Assembly (NCBI GenBank): GCA_000092065.1
Contig: CP000584.1
Reading direction: 5' to 3' (one strand)
Length of the DNA: 64,000 bases
Source of the DNA: Ostreococcus lucimarinus
Taxonomy: Eukaryota
Shown here: positions 1 to 64,000 of the stretch, piece by piece
Numbering within the stretch: position 1 is the first letter of the stretch
Layout of the letters: every line of letters starts with the position of its first letter
Notes under the pieces: model-generated
Seen by the model: the letters and a program-made list of their open reading frames with translations, nothing else
Databases searched by the model: none
What the model was told of the DNA's origin: nothing
Translations under genes and position numbers: made by a program

Positions 1-160
1 CCGCCATCACCGCCACCATCACCACCGCCACCGTCACCACCGCCATCACCACCACCACCGCCGCCGCCGCCGTCCCCGCCGCCGCCGCCGCCTTCACCGC
101 CGCCGCCGCCGCCGTCGCCACCGCCGTCGCCGCCGTCGCCGCCGCCGCCGCCCCCTGCGA
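1..160 (+). repeat. CCN-rich coding microsatellite tract (CCG/CCA/TCA)n encoding (P3-7 S)n.
   Basis: Direct reading of nt 1-160. In frame with gene 1. Confidence 0.9.
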
Positions 161-3100: not shown

Positions 3101-6100
3101 CTGTCACAAATGAAGAAGATAACGTGTGTCATCCAAATCGCGGGGGTGGGCCCCTGTGCGATTTTGAAGTTAATATATCAACGGCTGACGTCGGCAAACT
3201 CATCTTTCCGACGGAAGAAGATACGGATCAGGAAACTACCCAAATGGTCATTGCCGCGGGGTATCCAAACCTTGCAAACCCGTATCGACGAGAAGTCACG
3301 ATCACTGTGACACGCGACGATACACCCTTGGACGGTGGTCTTGGGCGATCGCTGCAAGCAACGATGACGCGAGTACTTATCCCATTGGGCTCCAAGCCAC
3401 GAGGAGGATTTGACACGGGAGATGACACCTTGTGGGCGACAGTGCCTATTGATGGATTGGTATACACAGTGGTGCACGATCCGCCAGGTGGTAATTCTGT
3501 AGCCGAGCTGCAATCTGGATCTGAGATTACGATTCAGTGGGAAATCGCTTCAGCTCGCTCTGTGAAAGTTGGCAGATCGATCGAGCTCAACCTCGGTTTC
3601 GCAGGTAAAACTACGTTTGATCTAGGCTTTAACGCCGGTTACACCGCAGAGGCTGCTACAAAATCGAGCGTTCTCACGTTGGAGACGGAGAAAGATTTCG
3701 GACACAAAGAATCTGGTCCACACTTCACCGCGAAGGCGACGTCCGAAGAAGTGTGGGAGACGACGGTTACGATGGATCGACACATCCGGAGCAGCGACGA
3801 TGAAGGCACACCTGGACGTCCGGGCGACGTCATTTTAGGAGGTGGTATCGAACTCGTGTACAAGGTATCAGATACGCTCGACGTAGGTACTGTTGACGAC
3901 TGCTTAACTACGGGTGTTGGTATAACCTGGTTACCGCGTCGACCAACCTCTTACGTGTTCAACGTCTTTTCCATCGAGTCTCAAGTGCTGCCGAATCTCT
4001 ACTTTCTGTATACTGTCGCCAAGTCTGGCGAAAATACGGCGAAGACACCGTCAGATAGAATCGTCAAGGATGGATCGGGTATGCGATATGAGTGCGCGTC
4101 ATCGCCGTGCTCTAACTCAGAAATGAATCAACATTGGGCAAGCTACATACTGAGACGAATCCATACGTGGAAGCGAACGTTGCTTTGGTCCTCGCCCGAA
4201 GTTTACTGGATGCCAAAGGGTGCGAGTTATGAAAAGAACTACAAAGCATACGATCGCATCAATGAACCGTACATCGATTCACGTTCCCTCTTTGAACGGC
4301 GCATGTCATCCGCGTTGGCACAGCGTGATTCCAAGCGTGATCCATCGATTCTGAGGGTTGCATTCGAGCTGAGTAAAATGTGGTACGAGCAATCCCTCCT
4401 CAGTGTGGGTGACAGAGGCATGCTTCGTTCGAAACCTCACATCCCTGCTTTATTTCTCACTGCAGGACTGGAAATTCCGAGACTAGCACCATTTCTCGAA
4501 AATTCACGAGCAGCGTCTTTTGCTTCGATCGCGTACCCACGTTCGTCAAAGGGTGCGTGGTCATTCGATGAAGTGGTAAATGACCAAACAAACATCGGAA
4601 TGTACTCTTTTGGGATGAACGAAGTCGCCGCTCGTGACCTCGATGCGCAGGTCAAGAAGTGCGACGGTGTACTGTGCGAGACCAGTGGAGAATTCGACGC
4701 CGCACCACATGACGTGTTGTACGGAGGATCACTGAACGCCATGGGTGAGACCGGCGACCTTCGCGCCACGGACCCTTCGCGCTTAATGGCGTCTCTTACT
4801 GGGACTCCTGGTCCAACCGGAATGCTTCAAAAGGATGCCGTCGCGAGCGGCGGAGAAGAGGAGACGATATACTTAACTTTTGGTGGTGGTGGACATGCGT
4901 TGGAATTCTCTTTCAGCGCAAAGGAGTCCATCAACCGCGATGCATTCGCGTACTCGCTTGACTTTGATGCAAGCGCCGAAAACACAAACAACATGAAGTT
5001 CTCGGGCTCACCAATACCCACCATCGAGTTTAATCGAGCGACAGACATCGCCAGAACGCTGTCCACGGATCGTATCTTTGCGTGGAACAAGTACGGAACG
5101 ATGACGACGGTGTATTCTCTCGCGGATCCAGATTATGGCGATAAATTTGTTCTGAAAGTCGGAAGCGATGCGCGATTCGGCACACCGCTCTTCATGACAA
5201 TGGGCGGTAGATCCATGTGTCCCGGCGAATTGACGACGATGTGGCGCGAATCGGGAAATATCATTGAAAGACCTCGTTCGTTATCCTTTGGTACGCTCCC
5301 GCTGAACCCAGGAGAGCGCGCTGTTCACGAAATAACTATTCAGAATGAATCTCCATACAGAGAAGCCCGACCGCTGTATTTACGTATCGTTGATGGACAC
5401 TCAGAGTCGTTACGATCGCTGGTGCGCGCAGCGCTGAACATCATCAAGGATGATGAATCAGCTTCGGCACAACATGTAGCCACAGTTGTCACGAACACTG
5501 CTGCAAACTCAGTAGCTTCGGCATCCCTGTCCATGGCCACTGTCATAGAGAAAGTTGAAGAGGCAGCTGGCAGCGGCGACGCGACTGCCCTGAGTGTTAT
5601 GCAAGTCGTCGTCGCCGAAGTCGAGAGCGTCAGTAAATCGGCTATGACGCCGTTACAGGATGTAGAGATTACCGTGAACGGCAAGAAGGTGGTACCTGTC
5701 GCTGAGTGGCTTCCTTTGAAGCATGTCATCGGCGATGCTCTTGAATCACAACGGACCGTTCACAAGACTGTGTTCAACTTGGGTTTCAAGCCAACGGAAA
5801 CCTCGCATCCTATCATTGAACACATTCAAGTTGAAATTGGATCTCTGTGCGAAATGCAAATCTCATATGATGGAGCTGGTCTGTATCGCGATCCAATCGC
5901 CGTCAAGGCTCAACTTGAAAAGATGCGATGGGAATCCAAGTGTCCGAGCGTGACGTTTTCCAAGTCCACCGTCATTGACAGTGAAATCACGCGCGCAAAC
6001 GCGACTGCGCCGCCGCTTCGTTTGGTGGTGGTCAATCCCGATTCTGGAAACTTGTGGGATCCTAGCAGCGCCAGTAGACTCGAAAAGGTTGTCGTACAGT

Positions 6101-7371
6101 ACAGACCGCTTTCGGGTGGCGAATGGATTACTGCGAAGGAGGATCATGTGAAGTACAAAGACGACTCGTACAAGAAAAATCTCATCTGCGAACATTCTCG
6201 AACGAGCGGATGCACGTGGGACTGGGATTTGAACAACAAATACGACAAGTTACTCAGCGGATACAAGGACGGTGCGTACGAGGTTCGCGTTAAAAACTTT
6301 TGCTCGGGCGGTGACGCTTTCGCCGCGACCGAGGTGCACGAGTACGTCGGCGATAAGACGCTATTACTCTTCACGGATACGAAAAACCCGCTCGTCGAGC
6401 AGCACGTGTCGTCACCCGCGGCGCGCACCGTCACCATCGTGTACGCGGAGGAAATCGATTGCGCAGATCCACCGACCTTCGAAGTGGCGCAAACTCACGA
6501 CGAATCCTGCGTCGCCGTCGCGGGCGATGGCACAGTCAGCGCGGCTATCATTCGTGAGTCTTACGAGCAAACGTGCCTCAACACCGGCGTTCAAGGAAAG
6601 TGGATGATGCAATATCCCAACAATGAGGATGCTCCGAATCCTGGATTGTACAGAGTCACCGTCAGAGACATACGTGACAAAGCCGGTAACCCTTTCGTCG
6701 GCGATTTGACGATAAACTACGTCGTGGGTGACGTCGTCGATGACTGTGACATTTTGAAAGCATCCAAAGATGACCTCACCCCGCTCATCGGTTTGGGAAA
6801 TTTCGCCGATGTTCAAGGCAATACCATCTGGGGGGTGTACTCTAAAAATATCGACTGTCGCTCGCAGCGAGTCACCATCACGAAGAGTTTTGATCAATCG
6901 TGCCGATCCACGAGCACAGAAATTGGCACAACCAACTTCACGCTTGCGTGCGTGAACGTCGGCGGAACGGGACAATGGATCATGAAATATCCTGAAGATC
7001 TGGAATCTGGAGTTTACACCGTGCGAGTTCAAGGCGTGAAAGATCGCACTGGTCACGAAGCGTCTTCTTTCATTCGCAAGTTTACAACGCTTCATAACTC
7101 GGATGGAACGTTGAACGAATGCGACGACGCGTCCGCCTCTTTTGCCATCGGACTTGGGCGGATGCGTCGTCGACGTCTCGCTCCGAGCGCGTCCGCGACA
7201 AAGACGTCCACAAACTTGATTCTGTCCGATCTCGCCATCGTCGTGTTCGCTATCTGCGCGCTCGTGATGATCATCAAGAAAAGAATCGCGCTGCCCGCGG
7301 ATGAGAGTGAGCTGCGCGAACGCGAAGCCTTCGACAAGGTGGACATTCCGCGCTATGGTTCATCTTTGTGA
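1..7371 (+). CDS. Giant secreted or type-I membrane protein, 5'-partial (reading frame 1 is open from nt 1; at least 2456 codons). Extensin-like (S)P3-7 tracts, one canonical EF-hand loop, two tandem ~95-aa Cys-containing Ig-like repeats near the C-terminus, a single C-terminal TM helix and a short basic tail.
   Basis: ORF track 193..7371 (2392 aa); the same frame has no stop back to nt 1 and encodes PPSPPPSPPPP repeats from nt 1. Second Pro tract PSPPPSPPPPPSPPPPPSPPPPPPPSPPP at ~664-765. EF-hand loop DDDGDGVLSEIEF. C-terminal hydrophobic segment LILSDLAIVVFAICALVMII followed by KKRIALP. Repeated G-Y-V-(V/R)-V-D-AGN-like motifs. No antisense competitor of comparable quality. Confidence 0.8.
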   Translation, partial: PPSPPPSPPPPSPPPSPPPPPPPPSPPPPPPSPPPPPPSPPPSPPSPPPPPPAKAIRGNSVDWTVKKNVDSTSSGGVFLVGWNSKGAAVSARAIHSSSNVTRGISATLERGPYSMGHTCVGLTSSADRETVDSSNIDFAMCCEWGYLGVFEKGSRKWRASGNLQDSCSQTDTLQIVVNDGDGAIEYFKNRRRVYTSQRTPQYPLHADAEVYFGRLGEVVWIERIPSPPPSPPPPPSPPPPPSPPPPPPPSPPPLHQFTSADVDPRINTAAAIPHITREEFEDFIENITGFPNLGHAIVMDEIWQYIDDDGDGVLSEIEFQHASYKMHTHELYVDPIIVYPSRSIKHRYGFKVSKSVRSDSSACVGDAVSYDGPSASLGSCELTSEKEPVEITLWGNGFAGTPSTTTIYSLGASKNGDTTYIASARVSVGTWFTYNVCAVIKFRVIKKDGQCSIVVDQVHKMWPSLVSSKCGITPPIYDRWSRYMVASVATSATNGFAGMKSSMFKSCAASCENAILLRHNKTVPYNTSEWRNYYESLVKRDMEPTTHVDCSHREDMVVLGREEDTLAMPMVLSSMARKQWLLDLDSARRKQSTSENVTKLLGTMHSNFAISSDLWLPDIVHVFDKIPKPENASSGPSKEDEIHVVDNDLGNSFSNFARIEVNRLQLEHKRIGEKTFTDDTAAVVKGAILFPQHLTGGSPNCGLFEAMIRVYDVEEDGEPDVYLTEEDGSFEMALTRGKTFRIEAFYEGHTICYAGSQPQDATSPNGYDFEGGQQACVKTTHTLARVGDGNFLYFTDITRGNIDLGLYAGECEERYTGEDVKFRVTPVNGCHKPVIVSETDINERWHTIEDILPEGQQVGDNARVWKFAAMDYSITLASGSDISRVTEKACPDEACPDYWDGCQVEPDDMRQFFRNRNSLERLALMRDEFAWNSIRYKYHGYICAQIMDIPRITDNELRLETCVGNLTSGMLTEKHLLGSSDHDTISVAADKSLRVKVFELHDLTPNAADAPFKCTKFPNTQSRTGNTKFSVRQTVTNEEDNVCHPNRGGGPLCDFEVNISTADVGKLIFPTEEDTDQETTQMVIAAGYPNLANPYRREVTITVTRDDTPLDGGLGRSLQATMTRVLIPLGSKPRGGFDTGDDTLWATVPIDGLVYTVVHDPPGGNSVAELQSGSEITIQWEIASARSVKVGRSIELNLGFAGKTTFDLGFNAGYTAEAATKSSVLTLETEKDFGHKESGPHFTAKATSEEVWETTVTMDRHIRSSDDEGTPGRPGDVILGGGIELVYKVSDTLDVGTVDDCLTTGVGITWLPRRPTSYVFNVFSIESQVLPNLYFLYTVAKSGENTAKTPSDRIVKDGSGMRYECASSPCSNSEMNQHWASYILRRIHTWKRTLLWSSPEVYWMPKGASYEKNYKAYDRINEPYIDSRSLFERRMSSALAQRDSKRDPSILRVAFELSKMWYEQSLLSVGDRGMLRSKPHIPALFLTAGLEIPRLAPFLENSRAASFASIAYPRSSKGAWSFDEVVNDQTNIGMYSFGMNEVAARDLDAQVKKCDGVLCETSGEFDAAPHDVLYGGSLNAMGETGDLRATDPSRLMASLTGTPGPTGMLQKDAVASGGEEETIYLTFGGGGHALEFSFSAKESINRDAFAYSLDFDASAENTNNMKFSGSPIPTIEFNRATDIARTLSTDRIFAWNKYGTMTTVYSLADPDYGDKFVLKVGSDARFGTPLFMTMGGRSMCPGELTTMWRESGNIIERPRSLSFGTLPLNPGERAVHEITIQNESPYREARPLYLRIVDGHSESLRSLVRAALNIIKDDESASAQHVATVVTNTAANSVASASLSMATVIEKVEEAAGSGDATALSVMQVVVAEVESVSKSAMTPLQDVEITVNGKKVVPVAEWLPLKHVIGDALESQRTVHKTVFNLGFKPTETSHPIIEHIQVEIGSLCEMQISYDGAGLYRDPIAVKAQLEKMRWESKCPSVTFSKSTVIDSEITRANATAPPLRLVVVNPDSGNLWDPSSASRLEKVVVQYRPLSGGEWITAKEDHVKYKDDSYKKNLICEHSRTSGCTWDWDLNNKYDKLLSGYKDGAYEVRVKNFCSGGDAFAATEVHEYVGDKTLLLFTDTKNPLVEQHVSSPAARTVTIVYAEEIDCADPPTFEVAQTHDESCVAVAGDGTVSAAIIRESYEQTCLNTGVQGKWMMQYPNNEDAPNPGLYRVTVRDIRDKAGNPFVGDLTINYVVGDVVDDCDILKASKDDLTPLIGLGNFADVQGNTIWGVYSKNIDCRSQRVTITKSFDQSCRSTSTEIGTTNFTLACVNVGGTGQWIMKYPEDLESGVYTVRVQGVKDRTGHEASSFIRKFTTLHNSDGTLNECDDASASFAIGLGRMRRRRLAPSASATKTSTNLILSDLAIVVFAICALVMIIKKRIALPADESELREREAFDKVDIPRYGSSL

Positions 7372-7653
7372 TTCCACCGCGCGAATTGACCGTCGGCGAC
7401 AAAGTCGAGAAACCGACGAACCTACGTCGCCGTCACTTTTTGACAATTTTGATTTACTCCTTTTCTCTATGTTCGAGTCGCCGCCGTTCGACCTCGCGTC
7501 TCGCCTCCTTCGCGCGCCGTCGCCCCGGGAGTCACCGCCGTCGTTTGGCGAAATCTCGCGCCGTCGAGCGTTTTGAGCGTTTTTCGCCGCGCGCGACCGC
7601 CTCGACCGCCGCGCCCTCGGCCGCGCGAGCGCGCGACGCGCGGCGAGGGCGAC

Positions 7654-9631
7654 ATGGCGGCGACGCGCGAGGACGACGGCGACGTTGAGGCGCGGCTGCG
7701 CGCGCGCTGGGCGGCGGACGGACGCAAAAACCCCGACGTCGAGGACGCGCTGCGGCGCGTGGGGATCGCGAAGGCGCGCGAGCGACGGTGCGTCCGCGCC
7801 GCGCGGGCGACGACGACGACGGCGACGAGCGATGCGCGAACGACACTAACGCTCGTTTATGCGACGCAGGGCGATGATGGCGCGAGCAAAGAATGTGGAG
7901 TTGCGCTCGAGCGAGGACGTCGGCGCGGCGAAGACGTACGAGGAGGCGGCGCCGCGCGCGGACACGCCGCCCAAGCGCGAACGGAGCGTGGAGGCGGCGA
8001 GTGAGTCGGCGGCGGACGAAGAGGCAACGCGTAAAGAAGCGATGCTCATCGAAACGTTCGATTCATCGCGGGCACCGAGGGGCCGAGGCGAAGGCGTCGC
8101 GGGGTCTCGTCGAGCGACGCCGAACGCGTCGATTGACGAACGCGCGCCAGGCGCGGGATTGCGGCTGAAAGGGAACGAAGCGATGAAGTGCGGCGATTTT
8201 GCACTCGCACAGGCGTTATACGGCGAAGCGCTGGATGCCGCGCGAGAAGAGGATGCGCATCTTCGAGCGGTGGTGTTTTGTAATCGCGCGTTGGCGTTTC
8301 ACAAGATGAACGAATACGATGCCGCGTTGTGCGACGCCAAGTGCGCGGAAGAGCTCGCGCCGACTTGGAGTAAACCCAAGCATAGACTCGCTGAGGCGTG
8401 TTTACGCCTGGGGTCGTACACTCTCGCCGTCACATACGCGCGTCTGGGCGAAAAACTCCAGTTCGAGGAGGGCGATTTCAGCAAATCGTTTCGCGACGTG
8501 CTGGACGAAATCGCGATTTGCGCCGCGGAGGACGGGTCCGTCGCCGGGTTTGACGGCAAATTAATTTACGTCCGAAGCGCGGGCGAAGACGCATGGCTCG
8601 GACGAGAGGCTCCTTTGAACGCGGCTTTCGATGAGCTAGAAGGCGAAGTCGCGGATCCTATGTTTGGTGGCGGCTCGGCGAAGGACGCGAATTCGATGAA
8701 ACCCGTGCACGCGAGGTCACTTCCGGAGGCAATTTCTAAAGCAAACGACGGTGACCGCATACTCTTACTGCGTGGCGTTCACAACGGGCTCGGAACCGTG
8801 GTTGAGATTGACAAGCGCGTGCTCATACGAGGCGAAGGCGCGCTTCGAGACACGACGTGCGATTGCCGAAACAACGCGGCGTTATTTCGCATCAAGCGTC
8901 CGTGCGTGATTCAAAATCTCGACATCGATTTCACAGGGTTTAGCGAGGCGATTCGCATCAAGGGAGATTCGCGCGTGAACGCGTTGATCGAGAATTGCGT
9001 GATCAGATCGAGCGGCGGCGACTGCGTTGCGGTCGGTGGCAAATCTGCGCCGACATTTCGCAACTGCTCAATCACGGGAAAATTGAGCGGCGTTCGCTCG
9101 TACGCCCAAGCAACGCCGACGTTTATCGATTGCAACATCACGCGCTCGGGATTACAGGGCGTGCTCGCCATGAAGGAATCACGAGTCATCATGCACGGCT
9201 GCGCGGTGCAAAACAACGAAGAAGACGGCGTCGTCGTCATGGAACAGTCCAACGTGGTGATGAGCAAATGCGTCGTACAAGACAACAAAGGCCCGGGCGT
9301 GGACGTTTCGAATACGGCAAAGGTTGTCGTGAACGATTGCGACATCGACGCCAATGTCGGCGGACTGTGGCTGTGGGACCATTCGTGCGCGCACGTCGCC
9401 GCGTCCAGCGTGAACGGGGGCAAATCTCACGCCGTGCTCGTCGACGTCAACGCTCGCGCGAATTGTCGCAGAACCAAAATCATCGGCGTCGTGCACGCGT
9501 CGGAGACGGGCGCGCGGGGCGTTCGGGGCGAAGGCACCGTCGTCGAGACGTTGGAAACGCCCACGTCGCTTCCCCAAGAAGCCAAAGGCGCGTTCAAGCA
9601 CGACCCGTGCGGCTTTTCACGAAAACAATAA
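7654..9631 (+). CDS. TPR-repeat plus right-handed parallel beta-helix (PbH1/CASH-like) protein. Proposed two-exon model join(7654..7787,7870..9631).
   Basis: ORF 7859..9631 contains a TPR-like segment (LRLKGNEAMKCGDFALAQALYGEALDAA...NRALAFHKMNEYDAAL) and about 8 beta-helix rungs (NCVIRSSGGDCVAVGG / NCSITGKLSGV / DCNITRSGLQGV / GCAVQNNEEDGVVV / KCVVQDNKGPGVDV / DCDIDANVGG). The upstream ORF 7573..8004 ends in a GTGCGT donor. A CACTAAC branch and a GACGCAG acceptor join the frames in phase (...AKARER-R-AMMARAKN...). The true ATG is probably 7654 (MAATREDDGD). Confidence 0.65.
7788..7869 (+). other. Putative 82-nt spliceosomal intron (GTGCGT...CACTAAC...GACGCAG) in the TPR/beta-helix gene.
   Basis: The donor GT sits at the third base of an Arg codon. 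The yeast-like branch point CACTAAC lies ~20 nt upstream of the CAG acceptor. Splicing is phase-consistent and links ORF 7573 (frame 1) to ORF 7859 (frame 2). There is no homology support for exon 1. Confidence 0.5.
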
Positions 9632-27769: not shown

Positions 27770-28663
27770 TTACGCGCCGCGACCGATTTGCGCGGCTTGA
27801 CCTTGCATCAAGCCCATGCGAATATCGCGGGACGCCTCCGCGACGGCGCCCGGACCGGAAGGCACAAAAATGGTCGAGTTGCCGCCTTGCGTGCCGACTT
27901 CCTTCATGGTGTCAAAGTACTGCGTCATCATCATCATCTCCAAAACGTCTTTGCTTGAGATACCATCCACAGATTCTTGGAAGTCAACCACGGATTCGCG
28001 CAAACCGGCGATGATGGCTTGACGTTGACGCGCCATCCCCGTACCCGCGAGATACTTGGACTCCGCATCGGCTTCGGCAGCCTTGACGACCATGATCTTA
28101 TCCGCCTCGGCGCGATCTTGCGCCGCGACTCTCGCGCGCTGCGCGGCGTTGATCTCGTTCATCGCCTGTTTGACTCGCGCGTCCGGCGCGATGTCCGTCA
28201 CGAGCGTGTTCATGATTTGATACCCGAATCCCTCCATCGACTTGCTCAGCAACTCCTTCACGCTCTGCGCGATCTCTTCCTTGCTCTCGAACACGTCGTC
28301 CAACTTGATCCTCGGCACCGTCGATCGCACGACGTCGAACACGTACGACCGAATCTGCGCCTTGGAATCCGTCAGTTTGTAAAACGCGTCGTACAATCGC
28401 GTCTCGTCCATCGACAGCACCTGATACTGCGTGCTCACGACGATCGTCACGAACACGTTATCCTTCGTCTTCGTCTCCACGCTCACGTCCAGCGACTGCA
28501 CGCGCGTCGACACCGTCCCCGCGACCGCCTGCCCGATGAACGGGTTCACGAAGTGGCACCCCTCGCGCGCGAAGAACGCAAACTTCCCGCACTGCTGGAT
28601 CACCTGCACCGTGCCCGTGGGCACGCACGTGAAGCAGCAGCACCCCGTGGGGCCGGCCGTCAT
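27770..28663 (-). CDS. SPFH/band-7 protein of the hypersensitive-induced-response (HIR) type.
   Basis: Near-collinear with plant HIR proteins (RVQSLDVSVETKTKDNVFV, DAFYKL, YVFDVVRSTVP, VKQAMNEINAAQRARVAA, ESKYLAGTGMARQRQAII, TQYFDTMKEVG, FVPSGPGAV). The N-terminus MTAGPTGCCC is compatible with acylation. Confidence 0.9.
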   Translation of the reverse strand: MTAGPTGCCCFTCVPTGTVQVIQQCGKFAFFAREGCHFVNPFIGQAVAGTVSTRVQSLDVSVETKTKDNVFVTIVVSTQYQVLSMDETRLYDAFYKLTDSKAQIRSYVFDVVRSTVPRIKLDDVFESKEEIAQSVKELLSKSMEGFGYQIMNTLVTDIAPDARVKQAMNEINAAQRARVAAQDRAEADKIMVVKAAEADAESKYLAGTGMARQRQAIIAGLRESVVDFQESVDGISSKDVLEMMMMTQYFDTMKEVGTQGGNSTIFVPSGPGAVAEASRDIRMGLMQGQAAQIGRGA

Positions 28664-28754: not shown

Positions 28755-28815
28755 ACTGTTTGCGCATATAAAAAGTATAAAAAGCCTTTTTATACTTTTT
28801 ATATGCGCAAACAGT
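28755..28815. promoter_or_regulatory. 61-bp perfect AT-rich palindrome (30-nt arm + C + 30-nt arm) carrying back-to-back TATAAAAAG boxes; candidate symmetric bidirectional core promoter.
   Basis: The sequence ACTGTTTGCGCATATAAAAAGTATAAAAAG C CTTTTTATACTTTTTATATGCGCAAACAGT is read directly. It lies between the divergent ATGs of the HIR gene (28663, minus) and the 28868 (+) gene, and is preceded by the palindromic TTTTTTAAAAAA at 28739-28750. Confidence 0.6.
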
Positions 28816-28867: not shown

Positions 28868-29938
28868 ATGGCGACGGCGCGCGCGACCGCGGGCGCGCCG
28901 GCGCGCGCGACGACGGCGCGCTGGATCGCGACGCGATCGCGCGCGACGCGCGCGACGCGCGGGACCCGCGGCCGCGCGCGCGCGACGCCGAACGACGGCG
29001 AAGCGCACGCGGCGTACCTGCGAGACGTCGCGGCGACGCGCGCGCCGGCGGAGCTCGAGGCGCTCGCGCGCGTGCTCGACGCGCTGGGGTGCGAAACGAT
29101 CGCGCCGAACGCGCGGCGAGGGATCCACCCGCTGGTGATGCCGCTGGCGAGGACGCGCGAGGGAGGGGTGATCGGACTCATGGTGACCGAGGACGACGGC
29201 GAGGCGACGCCGGTGGTCGAGGTGCGGGACGGCGCGCACGCGACGATGCTGGCGAAGAGCGCGAGGGATTACGTGCACAGAGCGATCGTCGAGGAGGAAG
29301 CGATGAGCGATGAGCAGACGACGACGGTGGCGGCGGCGGCGGGCGCGGTGGGGGTGAGCCTGCACGCGCACGGGGCGTTTAAGACGTCGGGGAAGGAGTT
29401 CGACGTGTACGTGACGACGCAAATCGGGAAGTTTCCGTCGTCCATGGAGGGGCTGGTTCGGAGACACTTGAAACGAAACGACGAACAGTCGGCGTTGATC
29501 ACGTGTGATCTGTACAAGGCGACGTTCGGCGATTGGGGGGCGCCGCACGTGTTCATCTCTGATTTATATTCCAAATTAGGACGCGACGAGGAGGCGCGAG
29601 ACGCCGCGCGACAGGCGTTGCAAACGCCGTGGTCCACCATCGGCGGCAGAGACGCCATCACGCGAATGATTGACGTCGCCGGGTGGTCTGGTAAGACCGT
29701 GGCAGAGATCAAAGAAGTCCTAGAGAGCCGACGCGGTCCATCCGCGGCGGCGTTCGACGGCCCGAAGAGCGAAAAGCAACTCGCGCGCGAAGAGGGCGAG
29801 CTCTTGCTCGACCAAATCGCCGCGGGTGAGATCGAATCCTCGACCGTCAATCAGCGTTTGGCGGAGTGTTACATGAACGCCGGCAAGCCCGCGCTCGCGA
29901 AGTTCATCATGTGCGGCGCGGGGATGCCGGCGCTGTGA
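28868..29938 (+). CDS. Hypothetical protein with an R/A/T-rich transit-peptide-like N-terminus.
   Basis: 356-aa ORF with mixed composition and a green-lineage organellar presequence look (MATARATAGAPARATTARWIATRSRATRATRG). No confident family. Confidence 0.5.
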   Translation: MATARATAGAPARATTARWIATRSRATRATRGTRGRARATPNDGEAHAAYLRDVAATRAPAELEALARVLDALGCETIAPNARRGIHPLVMPLARTREGGVIGLMVTEDDGEATPVVEVRDGAHATMLAKSARDYVHRAIVEEEAMSDEQTTTVAAAAGAVGVSLHAHGAFKTSGKEFDVYVTTQIGKFPSSMEGLVRRHLKRNDEQSALITCDLYKATFGDWGAPHVFISDLYSKLGRDEEARDAARQALQTPWSTIGGRDAITRMIDVAGWSGKTVAEIKEVLESRRGPSAAAFDGPKSEKQLAREEGELLLDQIAAGEIESSTVNQRLAECYMNAGKPALAKFIMCGAGMPAL

Positions 29939-34723: not shown

Positions 34724-35168
34724 ATGAGTGCCGAGGACGCCGTGAAGGCGATACGCATCAAAACCGGCTCCTTGCGGCGTCTGTTTAAAGAGCGCGCGAT
34801 GTACGCCGAGGAAGTTACGAGCGGCGAGGCGAAAGTCGCCGCGATGAAGCGCGAAAACGTCGACGACGGTGACATCAAGCAGCAGGTGCGCGCCCGAGCG
34901 CGAACGACGCGAGCAACGCGACCTCGATGCGTTTTCGTCGCTCACGGTGACTGACGCGCGATGCGGTCGACGCGCGGGGACGCAGGAGAACGTGCTCGAG
35001 GAGAGTGCCATGATGGTGCAAGACAACGCGACGCGCTTGCACGACGCGCTCGGGTCGTTGCAAGTCACCGTGGAGCATTTCGAGTCAGATGCGATGGTAG
35101 AGGCGAGTGAGGAATATGCGGCGGCGGTGGTGTTGTTGAAGGAGGTCGAGGACGCGCTGAGGAAATGA
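34724..35168 (+). CDS. TBCA: Tubulin-specific chaperone A (tubulin folding cofactor A), two exons: join(34724..34885,34986..35168).
   Basis: Exon 1 (MSAEDAVKAIRIKTGSLRRLFKERAMYAEEV...DIKQQ) and exon 2 (ENVLEESAMMVQDNATRLHDALGSLQ...EEYAAAVVLLKEVEDAL) together reproduce the 108-aa TBCA family. Exon 1 is from ORF 34724 and exon 2 from ORF 34869, in different frames. Confidence 0.8.
34886..34985 (+). other. 100-nt phase-0 spliceosomal intron of TBCA (GTGCGCGC...GTGACTGACG...GACGCAG).
   Basis: Coordinates fixed by residue counting from the ORF-track anchors (DIKQQ ends at 34885; E40 of ORF 34869 starts at 34986). The GT/AG ends and a CTGAC branch ~30 nt upstream of the acceptor are visible in the sequence. 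Confidence 0.75.
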
Positions 35169-57600: not shown

Positions 57601-58522
57601 TCGGTTCGACTTGCGGTGGCGGTGGCGGTGGCGGCGGCGGCGGCGGCGACGGCGCTTCCGCGCTCGGCACCTCCCGACGCCGCTCGGGCGTTTCTCTGCG
57701 CTCTTGACGCGACGGCGAATCGACCGCACCGATCGCGCCCGAAAGATCAAACACCAAATCTCTCCCATCGTGCTTGTACCACACCTTGCAATCTTGCGTG
57801 CGAATCAAGCACACGACCGACGCCACGTCACCGTCGCGCGGTTCGACGGCCAGCTCGACGATTTGCTCGCCGCTCCCGTCGTCCCGAAACCCCGACTCGC
57901 ACGACTTCCCATCCGGCGCGCGCGAATTCATCGGCACCGCTCGCAGCGCATCATACGGCGACCACCATTCGCCGCCGGCGCGCGACTGCACCCCCCAGTG
58001 TAGCAACAAGTTCCTCGAATCGCTTCCGCGAGCGTCCACCTCGCTCGTCCGCAGCGTCAGCGTCGCCCCCCCGCCCGCGCGCGCCTTCACCGCGTACGCC
58101 AACCTCGCCGTCGCGCCTTCGCTCGACCGCAGCTCCATCGTTTCCCACGCCTTTCCGTCTCGTCCCTCGCCCGCCCGTCGCGTCGAATCACCGACCGACC
58201 GTTCGCGCGTCGTCGACGCGCCGCCGTCTCGCGCCGCGTTCAAACCGTTCAAACCGTCCGCTCGCCGCACCTCCGCCGCGAGCGCCTCCAGCGTCGCGCG
58301 CGCGTCGTCCGCGCGGAACGGGTCCTTGACGCCGCGCGCGACGCACCCCGCGCGTCCGCGCGCGCCCGTCGTCGCGCCCGTCGTCGTCGTCGCGCGTCGT
58401 CGTCGTCGCGCCAGCGCTGGCGTCGTCGTCGCGTCGCTCGCGCGCGCGCCTCGCGCGTCGCGATGCGCGCGCGCGCCGCCGAGTCGCGCGCGCGCGGGCG
58501 CGGCGCGCGTCGTCGCGCGCAT
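54677..58522 (-). CDS. GWD: Alpha-glucan (or phosphoglucan) water dikinase, GWD/PWD family, with a plastid-transit-peptide-like N-terminus.
   Basis: C-terminal PEP-utilising nucleotide-binding domain ([27 protein letters not shown] ... ICIVQARPQ). Starch-binding-module-like LHWGV...EWW region. ~1281 aa from Met277 of ORF 54677..59350; the alternative Met222 (58687) would overlap the UTP4 ATG. Confidence 0.88.
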   Translation of the reverse strand: [1281 protein letters not shown]

Positions 58523-58685
58523 CGCGCTCGACGCGCGCGCTCGCGCCCGTCGCGCGTCGCGATGTCGCGCCGGCGCGGCCGACGCCACATCGCGACGCGT
58601 CGAGCGCCGACCGACGCGCGCGACGCCGACGCGCGACGGCGCGAACGCGGCGACGCGCGACGCGCGACGCGCTCCTGTCGTCGCC

Positions 58686-61109
58686 ATGCTCGAGCTCCAC
58701 CGCGGGCGCTTCGTGGAGTGGACGCCGAGCGCGGTGACGGCGCTCGCGGTCGCGCCCGGCGGCGCCCTCGTCGCGTGCGCGCGCGAGAGCGGCGCGATCG
58801 AGGCGTACGACGGCGAGTGGCGGTGCGTCGCGCGCGTCCCGGGAAGCGCGGACGCGGCGACGAGCGCGCTGGCGTGGTGCGAGGCGTTCGCGGACGACGA
58901 CGGGGCGACGACGCGGGACGAGGAGGCGGCGGCGGCGGCGACGAAAAAAGAGGAACGACGACGCGAACGACGACGACGAGGAGGCGCGGACGCGCGAAGA
59001 GCGACGCTGCTGAGCGCCTCGCTCGATGGACGCGTTCGGGCGTGGGATCTGGCGACGGGACGGACGACGAGCGAGACGGACAGCCGAGGAGGGGCGATTT
59101 GGGCGATGGAGGCGCAGCCGAGGACGCGGACGAGAAGAGGCGACGCGCAGCTCGTGGCGATCGCGTGCGACGATGGGTGCGCGAGAGTGCTGACGATGGT
59201 GGCGGGGAAAGACGTGGGAAGCGGGTTGGCGCATAAACGGGCGTTTCTGCGAGTGCAGGGTCGATTGCTGAGCCTGGCGTGGCACCCGAGCGAACCGCTG
59301 TTGGCGTGCGGGTCGTCGAGAGGCGCGGCGCACGTCATGGATTGCGTCAATTACAACGAGCTGATGCGCGTGTCGGTGTGTAATATTCCTCACGGGGCGC
59401 ATGGGATACTGAACGCCGGAGATGAGCACTGCGTGTGGGCGCTCAAGTATCTTCCGGACGGGACGCTCGTGACTGGGGATTCGGATGGCGCGGTGACGTT
59501 TTGGGACGGGAAGTTTTCCACCGAGTTGGTGCGATACCAGCAGCACAAGGCTGACGTGCTCGCGCTTGCGACGACTCCGAGTGGGAACAAAGTGTTCGCC
59601 TCGGGTGTGGATTCGCAAGTGGCGGAGTTTGAAAAGCTCGACGAGCACTTGGACAAGGAGGAGGGATACAATCAGTGGACGTACACGACGAGTAAACGAC
59701 CGCACACGCACGACGTGCGCGCGCTCGCCATGCTGACGACGGGCGCGGACGACGAGGACGGTATATTAATTTCGGGTGGTAACGACGCGCAACTCTTAGC
59801 GTACAATGCGGGGTCGTTTAGGAAGCAGCATCCGGTGCGCGTCGTGAGCGTGCCGCAGCGAACGCCGATTTCCATCACGAGCGTTGGGGGACCGAATCCG
59901 CCGCTTCTTCTCGCAGAGCACGCAAAATGGTTAGACATTTGGCGCATTGGTGAAAGTCGCAAGCGCGCGGATAAAAAAGAAGGCACGATGAAGCTCGCTT
60001 CGGCACCGGCGCACGTGTTGCGTGCCGAGCTTGCGGGGACGCGGCACATTTTATGCTCGGCTATTTCACCAAATGGTAAAATGATCGCGGTAAGCGACGT
60101 TCACAGCCTGAGACTGTTCGATATCCAATCACCAAAAGAAGGCGACGACGACTTGACGTGGTCGATTCGTCGTCAAGAACCCCCAGCGGGCGTGACTTCG
60201 GCTCAACTTCTCGCGTTTGCGCCCGATGGAAAGCACCTCACCGCCGTGTCGAATTCGGGCGCCGTGTACGTCATAGACCTCGAGGACTGGGTGGTTTCGA
60301 ACGTCCTCAAGTCGCACTTGCCAAAGCAAAGCGCCGCGGCCGAGGCTCTCGCGGAGGCGGTGCGTCAATCGAGTCAAGGCGTGGAAACGGTTACCGCAAA
60401 CGACATCGCGGTTCCCGTGGTGAGTCACCTGAGAGTGAGTAGCGACAACCAATGGCTCGTTGTCGTCACCGCGCGCGGCGGTGATGAAGCCGAGCGCGCC
60501 GTGGATGGTTTGGCGCCATCCTTCGGTGGCGGTGTTCACGTATACAACTTCGATACGATGAAGCTTCACGTATCTTTACCTCCCCCAAAGACGCACGCGT
60601 TGTGGCCGCCGATTTCGTCCGTCGCGGTGAGCGCCGACGGTGTCTTGGCGCTCGCCGGCCCTTCCAACGCGCTCTTTACGTACGACATCGACAGCGTGAA
60701 ACCGACAAAGTGGAGCGCCGCGCTCGCCGACGCCGGCGTCGACGCTCCAACAGCACTTCGCGAGATGCCCGGCCAGATTTGCGGTTTGAGCTTTGATCCA
60801 AAGTCAAAAAAGTCAGTGTTGCTCGCGCACACGCCCACCGCCATCGCGCGGGTGGATTTGAACGCCAAAATCACCGACGACGCGACTACAACGTCCAAGA
60901 AAAAACGCAGACGCGAGCGCGAGCGTGGGGCTCCCGAAAATTACGCCACAAGCGACGCCCCCGGAGGCGTTCGCGTCGTTAAACTCGACAACCCGTGCTT
61001 GTATTTGGGTTACGCCGGCGTGAACAAGGCACTTTTGATCGAGCGTCCGTGGGCCGACGTACTCAAGTCCTTGGCGCAGCCGTTGTACAGGCATAGATTC
61101 GGCACCTAA
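58686..61109 (+). CDS. UTP4: U3 snoRNP protein UTP4/Cirhin (WD40).
   Basis: N-terminus MLELHRGRFVEWTPSAVTALAVAP...AIEAYDGEW parallels Cirhin MGEFKVHRVRFFNYVPSGIRCVAY...TVEIYNLS. Internal SKRPHTHDVRALAM...ISGGNDAQLLAY parallels TKPFQHHTHDVRTVAH...ISGGTDTHLVF. The C-terminus ends in ...FGT, as in Cirhin. The ORF-track ORF 57774..61109 has a 304-aa junk extension upstream of this Met. Confidence 0.8.
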   Translation: MLELHRGRFVEWTPSAVTALAVAPGGALVACARESGAIEAYDGEWRCVARVPGSADAATSALAWCEAFADDDGATTRDEEAAAAATKKEERRRERRRRGGADARRATLLSASLDGRVRAWDLATGRTTSETDSRGGAIWAMEAQPRTRTRRGDAQLVAIACDDGCARVLTMVAGKDVGSGLAHKRAFLRVQGRLLSLAWHPSEPLLACGSSRGAAHVMDCVNYNELMRVSVCNIPHGAHGILNAGDEHCVWALKYLPDGTLVTGDSDGAVTFWDGKFSTELVRYQQHKADVLALATTPSGNKVFASGVDSQVAEFEKLDEHLDKEEGYNQWTYTTSKRPHTHDVRALAMLTTGADDEDGILISGGNDAQLLAYNAGSFRKQHPVRVVSVPQRTPISITSVGGPNPPLLLAEHAKWLDIWRIGESRKRADKKEGTMKLASAPAHVLRAELAGTRHILCSAISPNGKMIAVSDVHSLRLFDIQSPKEGDDDLTWSIRRQEPPAGVTSAQLLAFAPDGKHLTAVSNSGAVYVIDLEDWVVSNVLKSHLPKQSAAAEALAEAVRQSSQGVETVTANDIAVPVVSHLRVSSDNQWLVVVTARGGDEAERAVDGLAPSFGGGVHVYNFDTMKLHVSLPPPKTHALWPPISSVAVSADGVLALAGPSNALFTYDIDSVKPTKWSAALADAGVDAPTALREMPGQICGLSFDPKSKKSVLLAHTPTAIARVDLNAKITDDATTTSKKKRRRERERGAPENYATSDAPGGVRVVKLDNPCLYLGYAGVNKALLIERPWADVLKSLAQPLYRHRFGT

Positions 61110-61170
61110 TCGGCCCGAAATTGTTCAATACGATGAAGTAGTCTAAAATGATGTCGGTCGATTAAAATTC

Positions 61171-62099
61171 CTATTGTTGCAAACCGAGCAACATGTTCGC
61201 GCCACCGCCCGGCAAGTACATGACGTTGCGGCTTCGCGCGAGCGTCTGCGCAATCTCCTTGCTCGCTTCGATTCGGCGCAGCTCGACGAGCGCTGGGCCG
61301 GCAGCCTTGGTCGCTTGCGAGATCAAACGCGCGGATTCGGATTCACCCTCGGCGCGAATAATCGCAGCCTCTCGCTCTTGCTCGGACCGCTTCACGACGT
61401 AGGCCGCGCGTTCCGCTTCCTGTTGACTCACTTGCTTTGCTTCGATCGCCTTGGTGTACTCGGAGGAGAAGCTCAAGTGCGTCAGCGCGACGTCGTCTAA
61501 GATGATGCCGAAATCAGCCGCTCGCAGTCGCAAAGCCTCGCTGACTCGCTGACTCACCAATTGACGCTGCGTCAGCAACTGATCCGCGTTGAACTGCGCC
61601 ACGGTCGCCTTCAAAACTTCGTTCCCGATCGACGGCAACACCCGATCATCGTAGTCTTGCCCGAGCTCTTGATGAATCTTCGGCAGCTTGTCCACGTCCG
61701 GTCTGCACAGCACCCGCAGCGTCAAGTTCACCTGCTGCAAATCCTTCGTCCCCGTCACCGACGTCAGCGACTTCGCTCGCGTGCGCACGTCGTAAATCGT
61801 CGGGTTCTGAATGAACGGCACCACGAAGTGCGTGCCCTCGCCCGACGTCACCGGAAGCACCCCTCTGAAGCGGTCGAACATGACCGCGCGTTCGCCCCCG
61901 TCCACTGCGTACGATTACGCCCCGCGCGCGCGTCTCGTCAGTCTTCGCGCGCCTTCGCGCCGCGCGGGCGGTCGTATCATTTACGCGCCGCGCGTCAATC
62001 GCCTTCGCGTCGCGTCGCGTCGCGTCGACGACGCGCGCTCGTCGACGATTCGCGTCACCAACCCTCGATCGAGGCGTCGTCGCGTGCGTTCGCCGTCGT

Positions 62100-62132
<33 letters not shown>

Positions 62133-62236
62133 CGTCGCGCACCGTCGTAGATGGCCTGCGACGCCACGGAGGCGCCGACGCCGATCGTCACCGCCGCGCG
62201 GGCGAGATTCGTGAGCGCGTTCGCGGCGGCGCTCAT
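61171..62236 (-). CDS. PHB1: Prohibitin (PHB1-type), two exons: complement(join(61171..61904,62143..62236)).
   Basis: ORF 61171..61905 matches prohibitin from (V)DGGERAVMFDRFRG to the C-terminus. The missing N-terminal membrane anchor (MSAAANALTNLARAAVTIGVGASVASQAIYD) is encoded by an upstream exon in ORF 61646..62275, which ends in a GTGCGCG donor. Splicing recreates ...QAIYD-V-DGGERAV, matching the prohibitin consensus (...ALYNVDAGHRAV). Confidence 0.8.
61905..62142 (-). other. 238-nt intron of the prohibitin gene (phase 1), containing (GCGTC)n pentanucleotide repeats.
   Basis: Donor G|GTGCGCGACGC on the minus strand. Acceptor ...CGTACGCAG|TG GAC. The boundaries come from residue counting in the two ORF-track ORFs and are consistent with the directly read sequence around 62141-62160. 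Confidence 0.7.
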
Positions 62237-62309
62237 GGATTCCGGAGCGACGCGACGCGATGTGACGACGACCACTTCGCGGCGCGTCGCGCGGCGCGCG
62301 CGCGCGCGG

Positions 62310-62486
62310 ATGGGCGAGCGCGCGAGTCAGTGGGAACACCAAGCGCAGTTCGCGGGCGAGCTGTTCGTCGGGACGAGCGCGCTGGTGGGGGGATTCTTGA
62401 CGTTCATGTATTGTCACCTGCGAGCGCAAAAGCGTCGCCGCGACCGCGAGCGGTTGCTGTCGCGACAGCAGGAGGCGTTGTTGTAA
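62310..62486 (+). CDS. Putative 58-aa single-pass membrane protein (hydrophobic core LFVGTSALVGGFLTFMYCHL followed by a basic tail).
   Basis: Internal ATG of ORF 62151..62486, chosen to avoid overlap with prohibitin exon 1. No homology recognised. Could be a spurious GC-rich ORF. Confidence 0.25.
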   Translation: MGERASQWEHQAQFAGELFVGTSALVGGFLTFMYCHLRAQKRRRDRERLLSRQQEALL

Positions 62487-62549
62487 TAGATGAAGAAATT
62501 TGTGTTTGCTTATTAACGCGGCGAATGTTCGGGGACGATCGCGCGTGGA

Positions 62550-64000
62550 TTACTTTTCGCCCTCCTTCTTTTCCTCGGAGACGGTCTCGCCTTCGTACGT
62601 GTTCCCCTCGGATGCGGCGCCCGAGGCGGCACCGCCGGCGTTAAGCGCCTCGCCGATCTTCATCACGGCTTGTTGGAGACCATTGATCGCTTCGCGGAGC
62701 TTGGCGAGGTCTTCGCCCTCGGCCGCGGAGCGCACCTCGGCTTGAGCGTTGGTGATGGCGTCCTTGACGTCTTGCGGCAACTTGTCGCCGTGCTCGCTCA
62801 AGTTCTTATCGGCGCTGTAAACCAACGTATCAGCCTCGTTTCTCACTTCAATGAGTTCCTTTCTCTGCTTGTCGGACTCAGCGTGCGACTCCGCGTCGCG
62901 AACCATTTGCTCGATGTCCGCGTCGGACAAACCGCCAGAGGACTGAATGGTGACCTTTTGTTCCTTATTCGTAGCCTTGTCCTTGGCGCTCACGTTCACG
63001 ATGCCGTTGGCGTCGATGTCGAACGTGACTTCAATTTGCGGGACGCCGCGCGGCGCGGGCGGGATGCCGACGAGGTCGAACTGGCCGAGTGTCTTGTTAT
63101 CCGCCGCCATCTCTCGCTCGCCTTGCAACACCTTGATGCCGACTTGAGTTTGGTTGTCAGCAGCGGTGGAGAACGTTTGACTCTTCTTCGTCGGAATCGT
63201 GGTGTTACGGCTGATCAAGCGCGTGAACACACCACCCAAGGTTTCGATGCCGAGAGAGAGCGGGGTGACGTCCAAGAGCAAAATGTCCTTGACGTCGCCG
63301 CGAAGGACGCCCCCTTGGATGGCGGCGCCCATGGCGACGACTTCATCCGGGTTCACCCCCTTGCTCGGGTCGCGGCCGAAGAGATCTTTGACGATACCTT
63401 GCACCTTGGGCATGCGAGACATACCACCGACGAGCAACACTTCGGAGATTTCACCCGTGCTCACACCCGCATCCTTCAAGCAGTTCTTGCACGGTTGCTT
63501 GGTGCGCTCGAGAAGACTACCCACGAGCTCTTCGAGCTTGGCGCGCGAGAGCGTCATCGCCATGTGCTTCGGGCCCGACGCATCGGCAGTGATGAACGGC
63601 AAGTTGATGTCCGTGCTTTGCGCGGAAGACAACTCAATCTTCGCCTTTTCAGCGGCTTCGCGGAGACGCTGCACGGCGAGCTTGTCTTGCTTGAGGTCGA
63701 TGCCTTGGTCCTTCTTGAAGTTATCAACGAAATGGTCCAACAATACGGTGTCGAAATCTTCCCCACCCAAGAACGTATCACCATTCGTGGCCTTGACTTC
63801 GAACACACCGCCGGAAATCTCGAGGATGGAGACGTCGAAGGTACCGCCACCCAAATCGTAGACGGCGACGAGGCCCTCCTTCTTGTCGACGCCGTACGAA
63901 AGCGCGGCAGCAGTAGGCTCGTTGATGATGCGAAGAACGTCGAGACCGGCAATCTTACCCGCATCCTTCGTCGCCTGTCTTTGAGCATCGTTGAAATACG
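62550..64000 (-). CDS. Mitochondrial-type Hsp70 (DnaK/HSP70-9/mortalin family), 5'-partial - the frame stays open to the window end.
   Basis: [14 protein letters not shown], the substrate-binding domain with [23 protein letters not shown] (organellar DnaK signature), and a C-terminal lid ending EEKKEGEK. Translating 63855-64000 on the minus strand continues as ...[39 protein letters not shown]. Confidence 0.95.

What the first reader, a model, noticed from the sequence alone, without database searches (positions are those of the whole stretch)
61171..62236. Prohibitin N-terminal membrane-anchor exon recovered across a 238-nt intron
The single-ORF model starts at VDGGERAVMFDRFRG and lacks the ~30-aa N-terminal hydrophobic anchor that all prohibitins have. 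That anchor (MSAAANALTNLARAAVTIGVGASVASQAIYD) sits 238 nt upstream in another ORF-track ORF, ending exactly at a GTGCGCG donor. A split codon G|TG gives the consensus ...YDVDGG. The intron is the longest of the four and is packed with (GCGTC)n repeats.
Basis: partly seen in the sequence, partly recalled or inferred. Interest (0 to 1): 0.5.

Follow-up and report, generated by a model that had tools for sequence, protein, structure and literature searches.

The report
Two-exon prohibitin gene, already annotated

Summary
On the minus strand, exon 1 (62236..62143) holds an ATG, 31 codons and one extra G. It ends at a GTGCGCG donor. A 238-nt intron (62142..61905) ends in CAG. Exon 2 (61904..61171) completes the split codon G|TG, giving ...IYD-VDGGER.

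The spliced 275-aa protein is letter-for-letter XP_001417571.1 (UniRef A4RWG2, prohibitin, Ostreococcus lucimarinus CCE9901). The "recovered" exon is therefore already in the reference annotation.

Three independently assembled contigs, 99.7-99.8% identical to the window, contain the exact predicted junction and lack only these 238 nt. I read them as assembled RNA. Nine long metagenome contigs keep the intron.

The intron carries the published Ostreococcus signals: 5' GTGCGTG-like, and branch GACTGACG exact, 32 nt before the 3' end. Its position and phase are the same in O. tauri-like and O. mediterraneus-like contigs, Bathycoccus, Micromonas commoda, Coccomyxa and Marchantia. It is therefore an old Viridiplantae intron, not a recent insertion.

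The (GCGTC)n tracts are real and, in this window, confined to this intron. They are species-specific microsatellites with no sign of conserved sequence, structure or an RNA family.

Verdict: correct, ordinary, already known.

The parts
62143..62236 (-). Exon 1 coding part of the PHB1 gene: ATG (62236..62234), 31 codons (MSAAANALTNLARAAVTIGVGASVASQAIYD) and the first base (G, 62143) of the split Val codon. It encodes the N-terminal hydrophobic anchor.
   Evidence: sequence and translation. (aligned with the N-termini of Mamiellales and plant prohibitins). (aligned with human PHB1 residues 2-30). (hydropathy maximum at residues 11-25).
61905..62142 (-). Spliceosomal intron, 238 nt, phase 1, GT..AG, 72.7% G+C.
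   Evidence: Exactly this stretch is absent from contigs L001-L003. It is present in 9 of 9 long metagenome contigs: 8 identical and one of 240 nt. Orthologous introns sit at the same position and phase in six other Viridiplantae sequences.
62136..62142 (-). 5' splice site GTGCGCG. The published O. lucimarinus consensus outside chromosome 2 is GTGCGTG, so it differs only at +6.
   Evidence: Consensus from PMC2483917. GTGCGC donors also occur in other candidate introns of the window.
61936..61943 (-). Branch-point motif GACTGACG, an exact match to the extended O. lucimarinus consensus. 32 nt separate the end of ACTGAC from the end of the intron.
   Evidence: Consensus from PMC2483917: 87% of confirmed introns outside chromosome 2 contain ACTGAC and 66.5% contain GACTGACG.
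61905..61907 (-). 3' splice site CAG.
62005..62139 (.). Degenerate pentanucleotide microsatellite: (GCGTC)n on the + strand, (GACGC)n in the transcript. The exact tracts are at 62007-62026 and 62101-62125.
   Evidence: TRF: period 5, 27 copies, 68% matches. (5 exact (GCGTC)3 hits, all here, 0.03 expected). Absent from the orthologous introns. Unchanged in all 9 environmental contigs; the one 240-nt variant differs only downstream of the tracts.
61171..61904 (-). Exon 2 coding part: TG of the split Val codon, the SPFH/Band 7 domain, the C-terminal coiled-coil region and the stop codon TAG (61173..61171).
   Evidence: Pfam Band_7, residues 32-218, E 1e-31. (collinear with human PHB1 to residue 270)..

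Best explanation
The region is the nuclear PHB1-type prohibitin gene of Ostreococcus lucimarinus, made of two coding exons on the minus strand. Exon 1 (62236..62143) encodes the uncleaved N-terminal hydrophobic segment. In characterised prohibitins this segment targets and anchors the protein in the mitochondrial inner membrane. Exon 2 (61904..61171) encodes the SPFH domain and the coiled-coil region that build the prohibitin ring. A 238-nt U2-type intron in phase 1 is removed using the strict Ostreococcus signals: GTGCGYG at the 5' end, a GACTGACG branch site and a CAG 32 nt further on.

Splicing is obligatory. Read-through shifts the frame, and the first ATG of exon 2 would start the protein inside the SPFH domain.

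The intron is ancestral. It sits at the same codon and phase across Mamiellales, a trebouxiophyte and a liverwort. Its interior is free to drift and in this species has accumulated (GACGC)n microsatellites.

Shown here: the gene structure, the exon junction in assembled contigs that lack the intron, conservation of the intron position, and family assignment by sequence. Inferred: that the intron-less contigs derive from RNA, mitochondrial inner-membrane anchoring, and ring formation with a PHB2 partner.
For: - The spliced 275-aa protein is an exact match to XP_001417571.1 / ABO95864.1 / UniRef A4RWG2, O. lucimarinus CCE9901.
- L001, L002 and L003 come from two JGI samples and one SRA run. They are collinear with the window at 99.7-99.8% over 3.8-5.4 kb, except that 62142..61905 is missing. 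The exact 60-nt junction is present, no intron 30-mer is present, and the CDS is identical.
- Nine long metagenome contigs (56-932 kb) carry the intron.
- In M. commoda the reference genome has a 146-nt intron at the same site. An SRA-run contig that is otherwise 100% identical lacks exactly that intron.
- The intron has the same position and phase in O. tauri-like (235 nt), O. mediterraneus-like (226 nt), Bathycoccus (201 nt), Coccomyxa and Marchantia sequences.
- An MMETSP transcript from a cluster that includes O. mediterraneus sequences (P0158, 275 aa) has the same spliced N-terminus.
- Human PHB1 matches at E 1e-93, against 3e-76 for PHB2. Pfam Band_7 matches at 1e-31.
- The splice signals match the published O. 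lucimarinus consensus.
Against: - I could not confirm from metadata that the three intron-less contigs come from RNA rather than DNA. A literature search on the sample accessions found nothing, and no other intron lies within their span to serve as an internal control.
- The donor differs from the consensus at +6 (C instead of T).
- Membrane anchoring and mitochondrial location are taken from what is known of prohibitins and were not tested.
Confidence: 0.97

Rival explanations
1. The gene is a single exon. Translation starts at the first ATG of the long ORF (MFDRFRG..., 236 aa), and the upstream MSAAAN... ORF is a chance open frame in G+C-rich DNA.
For: Prokaryote-style gene callers produce exactly this model. 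The 236-aa form is on 483 contigs, and the GTG-start 244-aa form is in GenBank as 'prohibitin family protein [bacterium]' MDA9599494.1. G+C-rich DNA gives many spurious ORFs here.
Against: - This protein would begin inside the SPFH domain and would lack about 39 residues that align with every full-length prohibitin.
- The upstream peptide is conserved in sequence in Micromonas, O. tauri, Bathycoccus and plants.
- Contigs with the exact splice junction exist.
- Canonical Ostreococcus splice signals sit exactly at the required places.
Confidence: 0.01
2. The gene model is right, but contigs L001-L003 are DNA of natural strains that have precisely lost the intron. In that case splicing has not been directly observed here.
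For: The contigs span several genes on both strands, including intergenic DNA, which looks like genomic DNA. Their sample type could not be verified.
Against: - All nine long environmental DNA contigs keep the intron. The only intron-less contigs are short (3.8-5.4 kb).
- JGI samples with neighbouring accession numbers also yield spliced, intron-less prohibitin contigs of a second Ostreococcus lineage. Those contigs all end 17-20 nt upstream of the ATG, like transcript 5' ends.
- The same pattern (multi-gene contig, 100% identity, intron precisely absent) is seen for M. commoda against its own reference genome.
- Merging of overlapping neighbouring transcripts is documented for O. lucimarinus ESTs (PMC2367439).
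- Even if this rival were true, a precise intron loss would still confirm the exon boundaries.
Confidence: 0.03
3. The repeat-rich intron is a recent insertion of a mobile 'introner'-like element, of the kind described in Micromonas pusilla, rather than an old intron.
For: It is unusually repeat-rich. It is longer than the median O. lucimarinus intron: median 111 nt, mean 168 nt in PMC2483917.
Against: - The intron site and phase are shared with Micromonas commoda, Bathycoccus, Coccomyxa and Marchantia, so the intron predates Ostreococcus.
- No other copy of its repeat signature exists in the 64-kb window.
- Orthologous introns share only the splice signals.
- The repeats are simple pentanucleotide microsatellites.
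Confidence: 0.01

Closest known systems
Prohibitin 1 (PHB1; human PHB1, yeast Phb1, plant type-I prohibitins such as 'prohibitin-3, mitochondrial')
   Same: Full-length collinear alignment with solved human PHB1 (residues 2-270, E about 1e-93). It has the N-terminal hydrophobic segment, the SPFH/Band 7 domain and the C-terminal coiled-coil region. Identity to land-plant prohibitin-3-like proteins is 65-67%.
   Different: Nothing structural. Only lineage-specific substitutions. Its partner PHB2 and its subcellular location were not examined here.
The public model XP_001417571.1 / ABO95864.1 (UniRef A4RWG2), O. lucimarinus CCE9901
   Same: Identical over all 275 residues, which implies the same two exons and the same intron.
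   Different: None found.
The canonical intron class of Ostreococcus outside chromosome 2 (Irimia and Roy 2008, PMC2483917)
   Same: GTGCG at the 5' end, the extended branch motif GACTGACG exact, a CAG 3' end, and high G+C.
   Different: +6 is C, not T. Length is 238 nt against a median of 111 nt. Two (GACGC)n microsatellite tracts are present.
Introner elements of Micromonas pusilla (from my own knowledge of the literature; not re-read here)
   Same: A repeat-containing intron in a Mamiellales alga.
   Different: It is not a dispersed family in this window, the intron site is ancient and shared with plants, and the repeats are simple microsatellites.

Membership tests
Prohibitin (PHB1 type) of the SPFH superfamily | SPFH / Band 7 domain | tested here: met
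   Pfam PF01145, residues 32-218, E 1e-31, 110.8 bits against a cut-off of 23.6.
Prohibitin (PHB1 type) of the SPFH superfamily | N-terminal hydrophobic, uncleaved membrane-anchor segment directly before the SPFH domain | tested here: met
   Residues 1-31 align with human PHB1 residues 2-30 and with algal and plant N-termini. The hydropathy maximum of the protein is at residues 11-25, and only 2 charged residues occur in the first 31. Actual membrane insertion was not tested.
Prohibitin (PHB1 type) of the SPFH superfamily | C-terminal coiled-coil / PHB region collinear with solved prohibitins | tested here: met
   The alignment with human PHB1 runs to residue 273 of 275 (chain residue 270 of 272) without large gaps.
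Prohibitin (PHB1 type) of the SPFH superfamily | Closer to PHB1 than to PHB2 | tested here: met
   PHB1 chains score E 8e-94 to 4e-93 (315-317 bits). PHB2 scores 2.9e-76 (259 bits). The best named hits are plant 'prohibitin-3, mitochondrial' and JGI 'prohibitin 1'.
Prohibitin (PHB1 type) of the SPFH superfamily | Forms alternating PHB1/PHB2 rings in the mitochondrial inner membrane | not testable with these tools
   This needs biochemistry or imaging. A PHB2 gene was not looked for.
Canonical spliceosomal intron of Ostreococcus (class outside chromosome 2) | 5' splice site GTGCGTG | tested here: met
   GTGCGCG matches 6 of 7 positions. The consensus is from PMC2483917. The GTGCGC variant recurs in other candidate introns of the window, including a homology-supported one at 34886..34985.
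Canonical spliceosomal intron of Ostreococcus (class outside chromosome 2) | Branch motif ACTGAC / GACTGACG near the 3' end | tested here: met
   GACTGACG at 61943..61936, with 32 nt from its ACTGAC core to the end of the intron.
Canonical spliceosomal intron of Ostreococcus (class outside chromosome 2) | Removed from transcripts exactly at GT..AG | tested here: met
   The exact junction is present in L001-L003. Their RNA origin is inferred, not documented.
Introner-type mobile intron | Many near-identical copies in the genome; a recent, lineage-specific insertion site | tested here: not met
   There is no second copy of the repeat signature in the window. The site is shared with Micromonas, Bathycoccus, Coccomyxa and Marchantia. 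The rest of the genome was not available.

The most novel reading that the evidence does not exclude
Ostreococcus has lost most of its introns, yet this one survives at the boundary between the membrane anchor and the SPFH domain, at the same codon and phase from Mamiellales to a liverwort. The most novel reading left open is that it is retained because it does something, for example intron-dependent enhancement of expression of a highly expressed mitochondrial gene. On that reading the (GACGC)n tracts could be a species-specific tuning element. Nothing here supports a function beyond being spliced. The interior is not conserved, folds no better than shuffled sequence (z = -0.74) and matches no RNA family.
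Probability: 0.1. Interest if true: 0.3.

Novelty: already known. Interest (0 to 1): 0.07.

Why it matters
It matters little beyond correct annotation. The case shows that an ORF-only reading of Ostreococcus DNA cuts the membrane anchor off prohibitin. Such truncated models do circulate in public databases: one carries the label 'prohibitin family protein [bacterium]', and the Bathycoccus model reads through the orthologous intron. As a by-product, the intron is shown to be an ancient one shared across green plants, a small data point on which introns survive genome compaction.

Tried and rejected
- **Introner or mobile-element origin.** Rejected, because the site is conserved and no other copies were found.
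- **Embedded non-coding RNA or special structure in the intron.** Rfam gave only sub-threshold chance hits: 25.6 and 22.4 bits against gathering scores of 50 and 79. The fold is no better than shuffles, z = -0.74.
- **Microsatellite length polymorphism in natural populations.** None seen. Eight of nine contigs are identical, and the ninth differs only by small changes outside the tracts.
- **Internal control for the RNA origin of the intron-less contigs.**
  - I searched JGI metagenome contigs for the junction of another intron, the TBCA-like gene at 34886..34985. There were no hits.
  - The control search with the PHB junction returned only one of the three known contigs. That collection is therefore too sparse for the negative result to mean anything.
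  - A literature search for the sample accessions found nothing.
- **The claim 'longest of four introns'.** A consensus scan gave about eight candidates. One longer candidate (28355..28628) proved to be inside an intact ORF. I did not verify all the others.
- **Intron position outside Viridiplantae (animals, fungi).** Not tested.

Full report
**What is in the sequence**

The gene lies on the minus strand.

- The mechanical ORF 61171..61905 begins at a GTG and reads (M/V)DGGERAVMFDRFRG. Its first ATG is eight codons further in.
- A second minus-strand ORF (61646..62275) contains MSAAANALTNLARAAVTIGVGASVASQAIYD. The ATG at 62236 is the first in-frame ATG after a stop 34 codons upstream.
- After the Asp codon (62146..62144) come G (62143) and then GTGCGCG.
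- 238 nt further on, the sequence reads ...GTAATCGTACGCAG|TGGACGGGGGC.
- Joining 62143 to 61904 makes the codon G|TG (Val) and an 828-nt CDS of 275 codons plus stop.
- Because 238 is not a multiple of three, read-through leaves the SPFH reading frame.

**What the protein is**

- The spliced product has a Pfam Band_7/SPFH domain at residues 32-218 (E 1e-31).
- It aligns collinearly with solved human prohibitin 1 from residue 3/4 to residue 273 (E about 1e-93). Prohibitin 2 scores lower, at 3e-76.
- There is no gap at the exon junction in that alignment.
- The 31 residues of exon 1 align with the N-termini of Micromonas commoda, other Mamiellales, other green-algal and land-plant prohibitins.
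- The most hydrophobic 15-residue stretch of the whole protein is residues 11-25, in exon 1.

The exon therefore supplies the N-terminal hydrophobic segment, which in characterised prohibitins serves as the membrane anchor. That function is established knowledge of the family and was not tested here.

**It is already annotated**

An exact-sequence look-up shows that the spliced 275-aa protein is identical to XP_001417571.1 / ABO95864.1 / UniRef A4RWG2, 'predicted protein / Prohibitin, Ostreococcus lucimarinus CCE9901'. This identifies the window's organism. It also shows that the two-exon model is the reference annotation.

The truncated forms also circulate. The 236-aa ATG-start form is on 483 contigs. 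The 244-aa GTG-start form is in GenBank as 'prohibitin family protein [bacterium]' MDA9599494.1.

**Evidence that the intron is removed**

- Three contigs encode the exact 275-aa protein as one uninterrupted ORF: L001 (JGI 3300016791), L002 (JGI 3300016745) and L003 (Logan SRR6824979).
- They are 99.7-99.8% identical to window positions about 58.9-64.0 kb. They are collinear except that 62142..61905 is missing.
- The predicted 60-nt junction is present exactly in all three. No 30-mer of the intron is present. The CDS has no mismatch.
- Nine long contigs (56-932 kb, several named 'METAG') from environmental assemblies all carry the intron. Eight are identical to the window and one is 240 nt.
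- M. commoda shows the same pattern. The RCC299 reference has a 146-nt intron at the same site, and an SRA-run contig that is otherwise 100% identical lacks exactly that stretch.
- Three spliced contigs of a sister Ostreococcus lineage (P0001, 93% identical) come from two JGI samples with neighbouring accession numbers and one SRA run. All three end 17-20 nt upstream of the ATG, as transcript 5' ends would.

I therefore read L001-L003 as assembled RNA. The contigs span neighbouring genes. That fits the overlapping transcription units reported for O. lucimarinus ESTs (PMC2367439).

I could not confirm the sample types from metadata. Attempts at an internal control with a second intron gave nothing usable. 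The small remaining alternative is that these are strains with a precisely deleted intron. That would still confirm the exon boundaries.

**The intron is canonical and old**

Irimia and Roy (PMC2483917) report these figures for confirmed O. lucimarinus introns outside chromosome 2:

- the 5' consensus is GTGCGTG;
- 87% contain ACTGAC;
- 66.5% contain the extended motif GACTGACG.

This intron has GTGCGCG, which differs at +6 only. It has an exact GACTGACG at 61943..61936, 32 nt before the end of the intron, and it ends in CAG.

An intron sits in the same codon and the same phase (G|TN Val after Y-D/T) in all six other sequences examined:

| Sequence | Intron length |
|---|---|
| O. tauri-like contig | 235 nt |
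| O. mediterraneus-like contig | 226 nt |
| Bathycoccus prasinos | 201 nt |
| Micromonas commoda | 146 nt |
| Coccomyxa | not measured |
| Marchantia polymorpha | not measured |

The site therefore predates the split of chlorophytes and streptophytes. A recent mobile-element origin is excluded.

**The repeats**

- TRF finds a degenerate period-5 array over 62005..62139.
- All five exact (GCGTC)3 matches in the window lie in this intron, against 0.03 expected.
- Orthologous introns share only the splice signals, with mean column identity 46%.
- The RNA folds no better than shuffled sequence, z = -0.74.
- Rfam gives only sub-threshold chance hits.
- The tracts do not vary among nine environmental contigs.

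They are best read as species-specific microsatellites in unconstrained intron interior. At 238 nt the intron is above the published median (111 nt) and mean (168 nt), but it is not exceptional.

**'Longest of the four'**

A scan with the published consensus finds about eight plausible introns in the window. One of them, at 34886..34985 in a TBCA-like gene, is supported by my recalled alignment with human TBCA. A longer candidate at 28355..28628 is a false positive inside an intact 297-aa ORF. Among the plausible candidates this intron is the longest. The count of four is probably low, and I did not verify every candidate.

**Verdict**

The gene model is already public, and the intron is an ordinary, ancient, canonical Ostreococcus intron. 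Nothing points to a new mechanism. Interest is low.

Noticed in passing
window 62310..62486 (+): A 58-aa ORF with one predicted transmembrane helix (MGERASQWEHQAQFAGELFVGTSALVGGFLTFMYCHLRAQ...). It lies head-to-head with the prohibitin gene, with 73 nt between the two ATGs. The core SQWEHQ...LVG.FL.FMYCHL is conserved in O. tauri-like and O. mediterraneus-like contigs. In the protein collection it carries only prokaryote-style labels ('hypothetical protein [bacterium]', MDA9599493.1) and no O. lucimarinus accession. It may be an unannotated small gene.
   Followed up: partly
window 61171..61905 (-); GenBank MDA9599494.1 and MDA9599493.1: The truncated GTG-start prohibitin ORF and the neighbouring small ORF are deposited as proteins of a 'bacterium' on a 3.3-kb contig. 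This looks like an Ostreococcus contig mis-binned into a bacterial metagenome-assembled genome.
   Followed up: no
L007 1501..2547 (Bathycoccus prasinos FO082271.1): The NCBI Bathycoccus prohibitin model (P0026, 348 aa) and many 378-aa ENA/JGI models read straight through the orthologous 201-nt intron. That intron is in frame and has no stop, so the models gain a spurious 67-residue insert between ...MYD and VDGG. A 298-aa JGI protein (P0012) lacks the insert.
   Followed up: partly
window 27770..28663 (-): A second SPFH-family gene in the same window: a single-exon, 297-aa protein resembling (from memory) plant HIR proteins, labelled 'HflC (stomatin/prohibitin superfamily)' by JGI and annotated as XP_001417563.1.
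   Followed up: partly
window 28767..28803: An A+T-rich perfect palindrome (TATAAAAAG..CTTTTTATA) in the otherwise G+C-rich intergenic spacer between two divergent genes, the HIR-like gene and the + strand gene starting at 28868. It could be a shared promoter or terminator element.
   Followed up: no
window 34886..34985 (+): A 100-nt intron in a tubulin-folding-cofactor-A-like gene, with donor GTGCGCG and branch GACTGACG. It is supported by collinearity with human TBCA, recalled from memory. My spliced 114-aa model is not present as an exact sequence in the protein collection. The public model may differ or be missing.
   Followed up: partly
window 1..8000: G+C content is 50-54% over the first 6 kb and 59% over 6-8 kb, against 60-70% for most of the rest of the window. 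The first ~150 bases hold CCG/CCACCA-type tandem repeats. Not examined.
   Followed up: no
L004, L007, L009 compared with window 57774..64000: The gene order HSP70 - (small ORF) - PHB1 - WD40-repeat gene is conserved between Ostreococcus species and Bathycoccus. In Micromonas commoda the upstream neighbour is a DNA_pol_phi gene instead of HSP70.
   Followed up: no
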